DNA of 64,000 nucleotides from a virus, in the IMG/VR virus record IMGVR_UViG_3300042560_001229, positions 17,220 through 81,219 of that record. The stretch is one strand, 5' to 3'. The notes under the pieces were generated by a model. That model was not told the origin of the DNA. It was given only the letters and a program-made list of their open reading frames with translations, and ran no database searches. Both the position numbers and the translations under genes were made by a program. Of this stretch, positions 6,136-8,213 are shown piece by piece; within the stretch, counting starts at the first letter, position 1; the number at the start of each line of letters is the position of its first letter.

Positions 6136-6420
6136 ACTAGTCCGAAGTCCAAGGCTGTCCGAGTTGGCAGCATTTTGTTTCACCCTCCCCGTATGGAGCG
6201 AAGGTTCCTGTTGTTCACCCTTACTGGTGAGCCTGTGTATCAGTATGGCTACACCGGCTACACGTTGGAGAAGAACGGGACACGTCAGCAGTCCACCAGC
6301 TATGGGGACGTTGGTGATGACCTGCGGCAGAGGCGCGCAGCCAAGGCCACGGCCAAGCTCGGAGTCCCCGTCGAATGGCGGGAGACGAAGCCAGTCGAAA
6401 TGATGGGGGTGTCGTTCTAA
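6124..6420 (+). CDS. Hypothetical early protein (MKST start)
   Basis: ORF begins at the cassette ATG. Confidence 0.7.
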   Translation: MKSTTSPKSKAVRVGSILFHPPRMERRFLLFTLTGEPVYQYGYTGYTLEKNGTRQQSTSYGDVGDDLRQRRAAKATAKLGVPVEWRETKPVEMMGVSF

Positions 6421-7430
6421 TGATTGCCCGCCCCATGCTGGCCGAGACGCTGGAGAATGTCGCAGACATCCAGTTCCCGGTGCTCGCCACCGATAAGATT
6501 GATGGTCGCCGCAACCTCCTACTCCCACCCACCGAAGCCGGGAAGATGAGCCGCTGTGCCAGCCGTTCGCTGAAAGGGTTGAAGAATGACTTCACGCGGG
6601 AGTGGCTGGAGAGCTACCTCCCACCCGGCTTGGATGGGGAGTTGGTGGTGCTGACGCCCGATGGCCGCGTGGACGAGTTTCACGTTATCTCGTCGGCGTT
6701 CACTAATGACGGTGAGCCTGACTTCCGCTTCATGGTGTTCGATGACTTCCGTGGCGGGTTGCAGGAGCCATATCTGGAGAGAATGAAACGGCTGGAGAAA
6801 TCCCGGCTCCCATCTGGCAGGGTTATCAAGCTGCTTCCCACCCTCATTGAGAACGAGGAGGAACTGGACGCCTTTGAAGCCGCTGCCCTTGCCCGAGGGA
6901 ATGAAGGGATTATGATTCGCACGCCCCACTCACCTTACAAGGAGGGACGCAGCACGGTGCGCGAAGGTTGGCTGCTCAAGATCAAACGGTTCAAGGATGC
7001 GGAGGGCACTATCGTCGGAACCGTGGAGGGGATGCACAATGCGAATGAGGCCACGATCAACGAAGTAGGGCGCACGCAGCGTTCCACTTCCAAGGAGGGC
7101 AAGATTGGCAAGGGCCGAGTTGGTGCGCTGGTGGTCAAGCCGCTGGAGTTTGGCCCTCCTACCAATGACGACTGGCTGTATGTGCAGCAGAACGCTCATC
7201 GGATGAAGGCGGCAGTGCAGAGCCACCCGTATCTGTTTATGATGGGCACCGGAGCCATCACCGTAGGCGGGAACAACGTCCCGTTGTCCGAAGCGCACAC
7301 GATGCACAGACGGGTGGTGAAGTATAAGTTCCAGCCCATCGGCGTGAAGGTGAAGCCGCGTTTCCCGCAATGCCTCGGCTACCGGGACGCTGATGATATG
7401 GATGGCGAACAGCAAGGGAGGCTGTTATGA
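6420..7430 (+). CDS. lig: ATP-dependent DNA ligase
   Basis: KIDG adenylation motif, LDGEL, FMVFDD, EGIMIR, LLKIK, RFP OB-fold end. Confidence 0.93.
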   Translation: MIARPMLAETLENVADIQFPVLATDKIDGRRNLLLPPTEAGKMSRCASRSLKGLKNDFTREWLESYLPPGLDGELVVLTPDGRVDEFHVISSAFTNDGEPDFRFMVFDDFRGGLQEPYLERMKRLEKSRLPSGRVIKLLPTLIENEEELDAFEAAALARGNEGIMIRTPHSPYKEGRSTVREGWLLKIKRFKDAEGTIVGTVEGMHNANEATINEVGRTQRSTSKEGKIGKGRVGALVVKPLEFGPPTNDDWLYVQQNAHRMKAAVQSHPYLFMMGTGAITVGGNNVPLSEAHTMHRRVVKYKFQPIGVKVKPRFPQCLGYRDADDMDGEQQGRLL

Positions 7431-7432
7431 CT

Positions 7433-7818
7433 TTGGTGGTCAGTAGTAGCAACATGGTGCCCACGCGAGATGCTGGGACAGGGCGGTGGAATCTTCGCCT
7501 CATAGAAACAAGCGCGCTACTGGCCACCATCACTTTCAGTAGCAATGCTGAGGCTGACGGGCTGGCAGTATCCAGCCGAGGGCTGACGGCGAAAGCCTAT
7601 GTAGCCTGCCATAATCCTATACGGCCCTCGCAAAGGTGCAGTGTAGGCAGTGCCCTCCGTGTGCGCTGTAAAAGGGTGCAAACCCAACGCGGCCCTTTCG
7701 GGGTAGATGGATGCGGGTTCGATTCCCGCACGCTCCAGTTACGGGGCGGCTCGGTGCTACAAGACCTGACGGTGACATGCCGCAAGCATACCGGGTTCGA
7801 CTCCCGGCTACTCCACCC
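7433..7818 (+). ncRNA. Putative structured ncRNA with two tRNA/tmRNA-like T-arm and acceptor modules
   Basis: Several stems with GCAA/GAAA/UUCG loops; T-arms GCGGG-TTCGATT-CCCGC (7713-7729) and CCGGG-TTCGACT-CCCGG (7791-7807), each followed by a 7-nt acceptor strand and A. Confidence 0.65.
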
Positions 7819-7820
7819 CT

Positions 7821-7837
7821 TTTGAAACTGTTGCAAA
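7821..7837. repeat. 17-bp palindromic dispersed repeat
   Basis: TTTGAAACTGTTGCAAA. Confidence 0.95.
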
Positions 7838-7844
7838 CTGACTT

Positions 7845-8213
7845 ATGCCCGTAACGATTGTTGGTGTAACAGCCGGGGCGGTCATCACTTTCCTCTCCAC
7901 GGTGCAGAGGGAGGGTGAGCCTCGGCTGTATCGGGTGCGGTTGACCGTAATTGCGTTTGGTCAGACGGAACCTGACAAGGTGCTCGCACTGGCGGATGGC
8001 TTCATGTTTGGGGATGAGCAACTGATTCGAGTCGGCCCGAGACGCCTCCTACCGGAGCGTGTGAAGTCCAGAAACACTGACTTTGCCTCGGTGCTTTCCA
8101 ACTACATGCGGCTGGATGACATTGACGATGAATTGTCCTTGCCAGAATCCGCCCGCCAGTGGTATCGTCGCCAAGCAGTGAAACCCCGTAAAAGAAACCT
8201 CGAAATCCTATGA
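7845..8213 (+). CDS. Hypothetical protein with C-terminal RKRNLEIL
   Basis: ORF overlaps the groES start. Confidence 0.7.
   Translation: MPVTIVGVTAGAVITFLSTVQREGEPRLYRVRLTVIAFGQTEPDKVLALADGFMFGDEQLIRVGPRRLLPERVKSRNTDFASVLSNYMRLDDIDDELSLPESARQWYRRQAVKPRKRNLEIL

What the first reader, a model, noticed from the sequence alone, without database searches (positions are those of the whole stretch)
7433..7818. ~390-nt structured RNA with two nested alanine/tmRNA-like arms
Seen: a long stem TGGTGGTCAGTAG/CTACTGGCCACCA (about 7434-7529) and hairpins TCAGTA-GCAA-TGCTGA, GGCTGG..CCAGCC, GGC-GAAA-GCC, CCTATAC/GTGTAGG, GGGT-GCAA-ACCC and a UUCG loop. Two T-arms are each followed by exactly 7 nt and A. 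GGGGTAG (7700-7706) pairs with CTACTCC (7808-7814) with a G3-U70 wobble, then ACC. CGCTCC (7731-7736) pairs with the downstream GGGGCG (7743-7748), also with G-U, which is a permuted acceptor stem. No D or anticodon arm is visible. Established: G3-U70 with discriminator A is the AlaRS identity used by tmRNA, and two-piece tmRNAs are permuted. Inference: a novel tmRNA/tRNA mimic (decoy for SmpB, AlaRS or anticodon nucleases) or a large ncRNA processed at tRNA-like ends.
Basis: partly seen in the sequence, partly recalled or inferred. Interest (0 to 1): 0.78.

Follow-up and report, generated by a model that had tools for sequence, protein, structure and literature searches.

The report
Two-headed alanine tRNA-like phage RNA
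A lake-water phage carries, just after its DNA ligase gene, a non-coding stretch ending in a 119-base RNA made of two interlocked alanine-tRNA "top halves" with no anticodon and no tag message. It is a rare, apparently undescribed variant of the cut-down ribosome-rescue RNA (tmRNA) mimics already known from phages.

Summary
In detail: every stem, both T-arms and both G3-U70/A73 acceptor helices sit at the stated coordinates.

- **ORF 7427-7825 is not a gene.** Its codon score is 0.01, against 0.43 +/- 0.14 for the phage's genes. GC is flat across codon positions, and it has no real homologue among billions of proteins.
- **No standard tool calls it.** ARAGORN finds nothing and no Rfam family reaches its cut-off. 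The tmRNA model gives 28.8 bits over 7700-7818 with its whole mRNA part deleted, about what an ordinary tRNA-Ala scores.
- **The fold is nested.** The minimum-energy fold is an outer open acceptor/T-arm helix enclosing a loop-closed, permuted one (-49.1 kcal/mol, against -36.7 for the tandem alternative).
- **The design recurs.** Two unrelated phage contigs (L015, L241) share it, with compensatory changes and an invariant G3-U70 in both heads.
- **The upstream 270 nt** fold well on the + strand only and match no known RNA family.

Best reading: a tag-less tmRNA/tRNA-Ala mimic related to the "TLD only" tmRNA of mycobacteriophage DS6A, which probably interferes with host ribosome rescue. No function was tested. 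Earlier notes of this scan describe the same two-headed class on other DNA.

The parts
6375..7430 (+). ATP-dependent DNA ligase gene (context). Its stop codon overlaps the ATG of the spurious ORF.
   Evidence: PHROG 114 at 7.7e-40; Pfam PF01068 at 1.6e-12; codon score 0.52.
7427..7825 (+). Open frame of 132 codons, judged not to be a gene.
   Evidence: Codon log-likelihood is 0.01 per codon, below the lowest of the 64 training ORFs (0.08). GC1/2/3 is 0.59/0.55/0.63 against 0.59/0.45/0.70 for genes. A word-indexed search of 5.8e9 protein clusters finds only itself. The phmmer hits are repeat-inflated chance matches. The phage's genes mostly lack SD motifs, so the GGGAGG before the ATG carries no weight.
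7431..7699 (+). Unassigned structured RNA domain or leader. It has a 13-bp closing stem (7434-7446 with 7517-7529) and several hairpins capped by GCAA, GCAA and GAAA loops. It also contains an internal 24-nt duplication (7537-7560 and 7566-7589).
   Evidence: MFE -111.8 kcal/mol, z = -2.9 on the + strand and +0.5 on the - strand. It is an outlier among 69 control windows. No Rfam family matches at E <= 10.
7700..7706 (+). Outer acceptor stem, 5' strand (GGGGUAG).
   Evidence: Pairs 7/7 with 7808-7814, with G3-U70. In the three-sequence alignment positions 1-4 are invariant and positions 5-7 covary.
7707..7712 (+). Linker AUGGAU, a D-loop-like GG.
   Evidence: Aligned by the Rfam tmRNA model to its GAU..GGAU positions.
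7713..7729 (+). T-arm 1 (GCGGG / UUCGAUU / CCCGC).
   Evidence: Identical to the tmRNA model consensus at positions 347-363, 14.3 bits.
7730..7749 (+). Inner, loop-closed (permuted) acceptor helix. The 3' strand is ACGCUCC, followed by discriminator A7737 and GUUAC, and the 5' strand is GGGGCGG. It forms 6 bp with G3-U70.
   Evidence: It has the same form as the acceptor junction of a genuine permuted tmRNA (L021, 101.6 bits, 6-nt loop, no encoded CCA). RF04321 gives only 14.5 bits here.
7750..7790 (+). Interior: a GGUGCUA D-loop-like motif and two small hairpins (GGU..ACC, and AUGC-CGCAA-GCAU).
   Evidence: MFE fold. The motif GG(U/C/G)GCUA follows the inner 5' strand in L015 and L241 too.
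7791..7807 (+). T-arm 2 (CCGGG / UUCGACU / CCCGG).
7808..7818 (+). Outer acceptor 3' strand CUACUCC, discriminator A7815, then CCC (CC of a CCA end; the final A is not encoded).
   Evidence: The same acceptor pair occurs in tRNA-Ala genes and in tmRNAs of Pontibacter, Adhaeribacter (Bacteroidota) and a Cytophagales MAG.
7845..8213 (+). Downstream gene of unknown function (context).
   Evidence: Codon score 0.34, inside the range of real genes. No Pfam or PHROG match.

Best explanation
Bases 7700-7818 encode a small non-coding RNA. It is an alanine-type tRNA/tmRNA mimic built from two nested acceptor/T-arm minihelices.

- The outer head has free ends: a 7-bp acceptor stem with G3-U70, discriminator A and a CC tail.
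- The inner head is circularly permuted and closed by a 6-nt loop.
- It has no anticodon arm and no tag reading frame.

Shown here:
- The region does not look like coding sequence.
- The nested fold is the minimum-energy fold.
- The design recurs, with compensatory changes, in two unrelated phage contigs.

Inferred steps:
1. The RNA is co-transcribed with the ligase operon.
2. RNase P cuts 5' of G7700, which frees the 270-nt structured upstream part.
3. The 3' end is trimmed and completed to CCA by the host enzyme.
4. Host AlaRS charges it, since G3-U70 plus A73 suffices on minihelices.
5. Like the 'TLD only' tmRNA of phage DS6A, it then occupies SmpB, EF-Tu or stalled ribosomes. This blunts or redirects host trans-translation during infection.

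The inner head may also be opened by RNase P and given a CCA end. Two-piece tmRNAs and M. smegmatis YrlA are matured in that way.
For: - **Non-coding:**
- **tRNA-like frame:** RF00023 scores 28.8 bits, E 8.6e-10, over model positions 1-374 with 300 positions deleted. The outer 5' strand adds about 17 bits over the 3' half alone.
- **Nested fold:** it is the MFE at -49.1 kcal/mol, against -36.7 for tandem self-pairing. Chance of both strand complements is about 9e-4.
- **Same design elsewhere:** L015:468-577 and L241:8628-8752(-). In the alignment 92.8% of cells are paired. Nine pairs changed on both sides (1 of 500 shuffles reached this, and slid controls gave 1-2). G3-U70 is invariant in both heads.
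- **L241 detail:** it encodes CCA after both heads.
- **Published precedent:** DS6A 'TLD only' tmRNA, and a TLD alone inhibits tmRNA (PMC4131195, citing Mao 2009; PMC11915505). I located the DS6A RNA at 43.2 bits. An 81-nt form at 57 bits is conserved in Streptomyces phages.
- **Against an attP relic:** the phage has no integrase or resolvase.
- **Host factors needed:** the phage has no SmpB and no CCA-adding enzyme.
Against: - There is no expression data: no RNA run was listed.
- There is no natural variation: four other lake runs hold identical sequence.
- Only two relatives were found, and the alignment was fitted to the model.
- 28.8 bits is below Rfam's cut-off of 47, and an ordinary tRNA-Ala scores 29.9 on the same model. 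The match therefore shows alanine acceptor/T-arm likeness, not tmRNA descent.
- The interior shares nothing with the DS6A or Streptomyces-phage mini-tmRNAs.
- The 3' end reads ACCC, not ACCA.
- No promoter or terminator brackets the RNA.
- The MFE fold of L015 alone does not give the nested structure.
- Charging, SmpB binding and any effect on trans-translation are untested.
Confidence: 0.55

Rival explanations
1. The tRNA-like heads are processing punctuation. RNase P and RNase Z cut at them to define the ends of the 270-nt upstream structured RNA, or of the ligase and downstream mRNAs. The functional product would then be the upstream RNA or a stabilised mRNA, as with MALAT1-mascRNA or mitochondrial tRNA punctuation.
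For: The structured, strand-specific 270-nt domain abuts the outer 5' strand directly. No terminator or promoter lies between the ligase gene, the RNA and the next gene. M. smegmatis YrlA shows that RNase P and CCA addition act on such mimics (PMC4201824).
Against: One acceptor/T-arm helix would be enough for punctuation. Alanine identity marks conserved in both heads in three phages are not needed for cutting. L015 and L241 lack any comparable upstream domain.
Confidence: 0.15
2. It is a decoy or sponge for host defence or toxin enzymes that act on tRNA acceptor ends or on the tRNA elbow. These would be enzymes that cut, acetylate or add nucleotides to tRNAs. It would protect the host tRNA pool that the phage needs.
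For: It has two acceptor/T-arm heads and no decoding part. The phage carries no tRNA genes of its own, so it depends on host tRNAs.
Against: Nothing here points to a particular enzyme. With no anticodon arm it cannot decoy anticodon nucleases. Strict retention of G3-U70 and A73 points to AlaRS or tmRNA partners rather than to a general tRNA-binding enzyme.
Confidence: 0.12
3. It is a decaying remnant of two tandem tRNA or mini-tmRNA genes (unit A 7700-7737, unit B 7743-7815) and has no present function.
For: The four acceptor strands are similar, so self-pairing is also possible: 5/7 for unit A and 6/7 for unit B. Unit B has the length of a tRNA. Its 5' half (GGGGCGG, three bases, then GGUGCU..GAC) resembles the DS6A 5' half. 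ARAGORN at lowered thresholds reports weak tRNA-like calls at 7660-7737 and 7736-7814.
Against: The tandem fold is 12 kcal/mol worse than the nested one. In L015 and L241 the self-pairings are poor (3-4 bp), while the crossed outer pairing is 6-7 bp. Both T-arms are perfect, whereas decay would hit them too. 400 nt of junk is unusual in a tightly packed 81-kb phage genome.
Confidence: 0.1
4. ORF 7427-7825 is a real 132-residue protein, and the RNA motifs are coincidental.
For: The frame is open for 132 codons (roughly a 1-5% chance at this GC; my estimate). The ATG overlaps the ligase stop codon and follows GGGAGG. phmmer gives E 4.9e-13 to a 1393-residue protein.
Against: The codon score is below every training ORF of the phage, and GC is flat by codon position. 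The phmmer hit is to a Big_9/cadherin repeat protein with 13 stretches. The best single alignment is only 29 bits, and Pfam's models of those repeats do not match the ORF. The phage's genes rarely have SD motifs. 'GFDSR' occurs twice simply as the translation of the two T-arms.
Confidence: 0.03

Closest known systems
'TLD only' (CDS-less) tmRNA of Mycobacterium phage DS6A (tmRNA Website tmID 11587; PMC4131195, PMC11915505), and the 81-nt form found here in Streptomyces phages (LuckySocke, GiJojo, Alone3, pSt2308, BRock)
   Same: Both are phage-encoded. Both have an alanine-type 7-bp acceptor stem with G3-U70 and A73 next to a canonical T-arm. Neither has an anticodon arm, a tag reading frame or an encoded CCA. 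ARAGORN, run here on the Streptomyces-phage form only, calls nothing. The DS6A RNA scores 43.2 bits on RF00023, below the cut-off of 47.
   Different: Those RNAs are 81-83 nt, with one head and a conserved interior hairpin (CCGCACGCGG). The window RNA is 119 nt, and its interior is a second, loop-closed acceptor/T-arm helix. It shares no interior sequence with them and scores only 28.8 bits.
Two-piece (circularly permuted) tmRNA, Rfam RF04321, e.g. L021 (101.6 bits)
   Same: The inner module has the same order: T-arm, 7-nt 3' strand, A, short loop, then a GGGG 5' strand followed by a GG-containing D-loop analogue. L021 shows that a 6-nt loop without an encoded CCA occurs in a genuine permuted tmRNA.
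   Different: There is no P2 helix, no pseudoknot and no tag frame. RF04321 gives only 14.5 bits here. The module sits inside another tRNA-like frame.
YrlA-type bacterial and phage Y RNAs (Chen et al. 2014, PMC4201824)
   Same: The tRNA-like module has the order T stem-loop, closed acceptor-like stem-loop, then D-like stem-loop. [quoted passage not shown]
   Different: No Ro60/TROVE gene is present in the phage. The Rfam YrlA model gives no match at E <= 10. There is no Ro-binding stem. YrlA has no second, open alanine acceptor end.
tRNA-Ala
   Same: The acceptor stem GGGGUAG/CUACUCC-A is identical to that of tRNA-Ala genes, for example in Sandarakinorhabdus and Bacteroidales. The T-loop is canonical.
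   Different: There is no D arm and no anticodon arm, so it cannot decode.

Membership tests
tmRNA (Rfam RF00023) | 7-bp acceptor stem with G3-U70, discriminator A73, adjacent 5-bp T-arm with a 7-nt T-loop | tested here: met
   7700-7706 with 7808-7814, A7815, T-arm 7791-7807.
tmRNA (Rfam RF00023) | Score at or above the curated gathering threshold (47 bits) | tested here: not met
   28.8 bits. A tRNA-Ala scores 29.9 and the DS6A TLD-only RNA 43.2 on the same model.
tmRNA (Rfam RF00023) | mRNA-like domain: P2 helix, pseudoknot(s) and a tag reading frame ending in a hydrophobic tail | tested here: not met
   300 model positions are deleted in the match. No tag-like ORF occurs in any frame of 7400-7960.
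tmRNA (Rfam RF00023) | Alanylation by AlaRS and binding of SmpB | not testable with these tools
   Needs biochemistry. The phage encodes no SmpB.
TLD-only phage mini-tmRNA (DS6A type) | Phage-borne acceptor/T-arm frame with alanine identity and no tag frame | tested here: met
TLD-only phage mini-tmRNA (DS6A type) | Single head, about 65-85 nt, with the shared interior hairpin of DS6A and the Streptomyces phages | tested here: not met
   The window RNA is 119 nt with a second T-arm. It lacks the CCGCACGCGG motif.
Two-piece (permuted) tmRNA (Rfam RF04321) | Order T-arm, 3' acceptor strand, loop, 5' acceptor strand, followed by a coding piece with a tag | tested here: not met
   The order is present at 7713-7749, but the score is only 14.5 bits against a cut-off of 47. 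There is no tag.
tRNA (RF00005 / ARAGORN) | Cloverleaf with D arm and anticodon arm | tested here: not met
   ARAGORN finds 0 genes. Only a weak call appears at lowered thresholds. The tRNA model scored below the tmRNA model.
YrlA / bacterial Y RNA | Encoded next to a Ro60 (TROVE) gene, with a Ro-binding stem and a match to RF02553 | tested here: not met
   No TROVE gene in the phage. No YrlA match at E <= 10. One GNCGAAN0-1G-like word occurs at 7588-7595, which is within what chance would give.
Two-headed (nested) alanine tRNA-like phage RNA (informal class; L015, L241 and earlier notes of this scan) | Outer open and inner loop-closed acceptor/T-arm helices with crossed strands, both with G3-U70 and a discriminator A | tested here: met
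   Models R1 and R2 and alignment A3: 92.8% of cells paired, 9 pairs changed on both sides, G-U invariant in both heads. Only three sequences are available.

The most novel reading that the evidence does not exclude
The RNA is cut in the inner loop and completed to CCA at both 3' ends. This would give a two-piece, strand-swapped complex with two alanine-chargeable heads. Such a bivalent Ala-tRNA/tmRNA mimic could engage two AlaRS, SmpB, EF-Tu or ribosome partners at once. The 270-nt upstream domain would be a new large structured phage RNA working with it. L241, which encodes CCA after both heads, fits this reading.
Probability: 0.15. Interest if true: 0.85.

Novelty: new variant of a known kind. 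Interest (0 to 1): 0.6.

Why it matters
Phage-encoded tag-less tmRNA mimics are barely studied. The two tmRNA papers read here name one case (DS6A), and inhibition of tmRNA was shown for a similar TLD-only molecule (Mao 2009, as cited in PMC4131195).

A nested, two-headed version with alanine identity on both heads would be a compact natural tool for probing several questions:
- how AlaRS, RNase P, the CCA-adding enzyme, SmpB and EF-Tu read the tRNA 'top half';
- how circularly permuted tRNA-like genes arise;
- how phages tamper with ribosome rescue.

ARAGORN and the Rfam gathering cut-offs call nothing at the window or L015 copies, and ARAGORN missed the Streptomyces-phage mini-tmRNA too. Such RNAs are therefore probably under-annotated, and here the region reads as a 132-codon open frame. 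The adjoining 270-nt structured domain is an unassigned RNA that deserves its own experiment.

Tried and rejected
**Homologue searches**
- The 'phages' collection gave only T-arm-sized hits.
- Exact and degenerate patterns in IMG/VR found nothing, or found tandem tRNAs. The CTGACGG-pair pattern was unspecific.
- The single JGI metagenome scan found only a genuine permuted tmRNA.
- The single GTDB scan found tRNA-Ala and tmRNA genes with the same acceptor stem, and no homologue.
- Ligase- and portal-anchored locus searches found only relatives at 25-35% identity, none with the RNA.
- Model R2, run over 100 further IMG/VR records, returned mostly tandem-tRNA junctions and no new clear member.

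**Expression and variation**
- No RNA holder was listed.
- Contigs of four lake-water runs were identical, so no microdiversity was available.

**Rejected readings**
- attP relic: the phage has no integrase or resolvase.
- Y RNA: no TROVE gene and no YrlA match.
- Group I intron, RNase P or any other known family for 7420-7712: no match.
- Permuted tmRNA running into 7875-7885: that stretch lies inside a frame with gene-like codon usage.
- Protein gene: see the rivals.

**Other**
- ARAGORN at lowered thresholds gives only noise.

Full report
**Setting.** The window is bases 17220-81219 of an 81,219-bp IMG/VR phage record with direct terminal repeats, rated complete. Identical DNA occurs in several lake-water metagenomes. 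Nearly all genes lie on the + strand. The finding sits between an ATP-dependent DNA ligase gene (6375-7430) and an unknown gene (7845-8213), which is followed by a GroES-like gene. The portal gene lies 2.4 kb downstream. The whole phage has no tRNA gene. It also has no SmpB, no Ro60/TROVE gene, no CCA-adding enzyme, no integrase and no resolvase.

**Observation.**
- A 13-bp stem pairs 7434-7446 with 7517-7529.
- Several hairpins follow, three of them capped by GNRA tetraloops.
- There are two perfect T-arms (7713-7729 and 7791-7807). Each is followed by 7 nt and then A.
- The 7/7 pairing GGGGUAG/CUACUCC has G3-U70 and is followed by ACCC.
- The 6-bp hairpin CGCUCC/GGGGCG also has a G-U.

The unconstrained MFE fold of 7700-7818 is exactly the nested structure.

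**Coding or not.** The 132-codon frame 7427-7825 has a per-codon log-likelihood of 0.01. The phage's genes average 0.43 +/- 0.14, with a minimum of 0.08, and the 5th percentile of in-frame windows is 0.24. GC is flat over codon positions.
- A word-indexed search of 5.8 billion protein clusters finds only itself.
- An exhaustive phmmer search of 1.84 billion representatives gives three other hits. The best (E 4.9e-13) is a 1393-residue Big_9/cadherin repeat protein matched in 13 stretches.
- The best single alignment to that protein is 29 bits, and Pfam's models for those repeats do not match the ORF. I read this as a chance likeness multiplied by the repeats.
- 'GFDSR' appears twice in the product simply because that is how the two T-arms translate.
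- The GGGAGG before the ATG carries little weight. Only 22 of 80 long ORFs have an SD core upstream, against a 20% background.

I conclude that the roughly 400 nt are non-coding.

**Known RNA families.** ARAGORN reports nothing, and no Rfam family reaches its gathering score.
- In E-value mode the tmRNA model matches 7700-7818 end to end at 28.8 bits, E 8.6e-10, with 300 interior positions deleted. That is the tRNA-like domain only.
- Truncation tests show what drives the score. The 3' unit alone gives 11.4 bits and T-arm 1 alone gives 14.3 bits. The outer 5' strand plus the GAU..GGAU linker therefore adds about 17 bits.
- The score needs a caveat. On the same model a genuine phage tRNA-Ala scores 29.9 bits and the published DS6A 'TLD only' tmRNA scores 43.2. 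The match therefore shows an alanine-type acceptor/T-arm frame, not tmRNA descent.
- No tag-like reading frame exists.
- The upstream 7420-7712 matches nothing.

**Nested or tandem.** The four acceptor strands are similar, so two folds are possible. One is nested (outer 7/7, inner 6/6). The other is two tandem units (5/7 and 6/7). The nested fold is 12 kcal/mol more stable (-49.1 against -36.7). Given the two T-arm/3' strands, both complementary 5' strands arise by chance at about 9e-4.

**Relatives.** No relative of the phage or of the whole RNA was found in isolate phages, IMG/VR, JGI metagenomes or GTDB genomes.
- A note from earlier in this scan described 'two-headed alanine tRNA-like phage RNAs' of 111-126 nt on other DNA. 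I treated that as a lead and tested it.
- One of my pattern hits, L015:468-577, lies in the tRNA array of a complete 161-kb phage. A covariance-model hit, L241:8628-8752(-), is the second. Both have the same design.
- In both, the crossed outer pairing is 6-7 bp, while the tandem self-pairings are only 3-4 bp.
- In the three-sequence model alignment, 92.8% of cells are paired. Nine of 23 pairs change on both sides; 1 of 500 shuffles reached this, and slid controls gave 1-2. G3-U70 is invariant in both heads.
- L241 encodes CCA after both heads. This hints that the inner loop is opened.
- Caveats: there are only three sequences, the alignment is fitted to the model, and L015's own MFE fold differs.
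- Model searches of 100 more IMG/VR records gave mostly tandem-tRNA junctions and no further clear member.

**Upstream domain.** Bases 7431-7699 fold at -111.8 kcal/mol, with z about -2.9 on the + strand and +0.5 on the - strand. Of 69 control windows none reached -2.9, and the lowest was -2.72. My own re-run of the target gave -2.6, so this is suggestive rather than strong. The domain contains a 24-nt internal duplication, and the word CUGACGG occurs three times within 220 nt. L015 and L241 have no such domain, so it may be an independent RNA or a leader.

**Known precedents.**
- The tmRNA literature lists mycobacteriophage DS6A as 'TLD only'. It notes that a similar molecule strongly inhibits tmRNA, perhaps by titrating SmpB (PMC4131195). 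PMC11915505 repeats this.
- An 81-nt TLD-only RNA in L016 scores 57 bits, above the Rfam cut-off. It is conserved and unannotated in five Streptomyces phages.
- The inner module has the form of the acceptor junction of permuted tmRNAs. L021 is a genuine one (101.6 bits) with a 6-nt loop and no encoded CCA.
- It also has the T, closed-acceptor, D order of YrlA Y RNAs. One of those is cut by RNase P and given CCA (PMC4201824).
- I found no paper describing a nested two-headed form.

**Conclusion.** The finding is real and non-coding. Its 3' 119 nt are an anticodon-less, tag-less alanine tRNA/tmRNA mimic of a nested two-headed design that recurs in other phages. The most likely role is interference with, or use of, the host's AlaRS, SmpB and ribosome-rescue machinery. 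That role is inferred from the identity marks and from the DS6A precedent, and was not tested here.

Rivals:
- processing punctuation;
- a decoy for enzymes that target tRNA ends;
- a decayed tandem remnant;
- a protein gene (least likely).

I class it as a new variant of a known kind, with moderate to high interest. The same class was noted earlier in this scan on other DNA.

Noticed in passing
L016:1748-1828 (-); also Streptomyces phages LuckySocke, GiJojo, Alone3, pSt2308 and BRock: An 81-nt tRNA-like-domain-only tmRNA scores 57.1 bits on RF00023, above the cut-off. It sits inside a phage tRNA array and is 78-100% conserved in five isolate Streptomyces phages, where it is unannotated or lies under a 'hypothetical protein'. 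It shares an interior CCGCACGCGG hairpin with the DS6A TLD-only RNA.
   Followed up: partly
L021:2144-2407 (+): A genuine permuted (two-piece) tmRNA scoring 101.6 bits, with tag ANDSAYDQALAA. Its intervening segment is only 6 nt, and it has no encoded CCA on the acceptor piece.
   Followed up: partly
L307, L325, L327, L328 (and L210, L233, L236, L258, L263, L276): A conserved 98-99-nt RNA with two T-arms and a 6/7 outer acceptor-like stem (GAAGGUG/CAUCUCC, no G3-U70). ARAGORN does not call it. It recurs in at least six IMG/VR contigs and looks like another double-elbow tRNA-like family.
   Followed up: no
L334 (G063:5055-5190, -): A mini-tmRNA-like unit with a perfect GGGGCUG/CAGCUCC acceptor stem, directly preceded by another T-arm plus a 3' strand. 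This is a tandem arrangement, not a nested one.
   Followed up: no
L304:1650-2040 (-): A dense cluster of T-arm-containing elements. It includes a permuted-type junction (T-arm, CGGCUCC-A, UCUU, GGGGCCG, GCU-GGUGCUA) and a tRNA-like stretch with an apparent insertion. It was not resolved.
   Followed up: no
L002:5504-5600 (+): A 97-nt tRNA-like RNA (RF00005 40.9 bits, encoded CCA, missed by ARAGORN). It lies about 600 nt downstream of the distantly related ligase gene, 35% identical over the best matched segment, in another phage group.
   Followed up: no
window 7554-7560, 7583-7589, 7766-7772; 7537-7560 and 7566-7589: The word CUGACGG occurs three times within 220 nt (19 times in the whole window on both strands). 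A 24-nt hairpin-plus-tail module is duplicated at 71% identity. This may be a repeated protein-binding or tertiary-contact module.
   Followed up: partly
whole phage (G000): Genes are SD-poor: 22 of 80 long ORFs, against a 20% background. The outer acceptor stem and the GGGGUAGA.. 5' end match tmRNAs of Pontibacter, Adhaeribacter (Bacteroidota) and a Cytophagales MAG. This is a weak hint at a Bacteroidota host despite 58% GC.
   Followed up: partly
L016:6642-6874 (-): A manA-RNA-like match (47.8 bits, cut-off 55.2) inside the same phage tRNA array.
   Followed up: no
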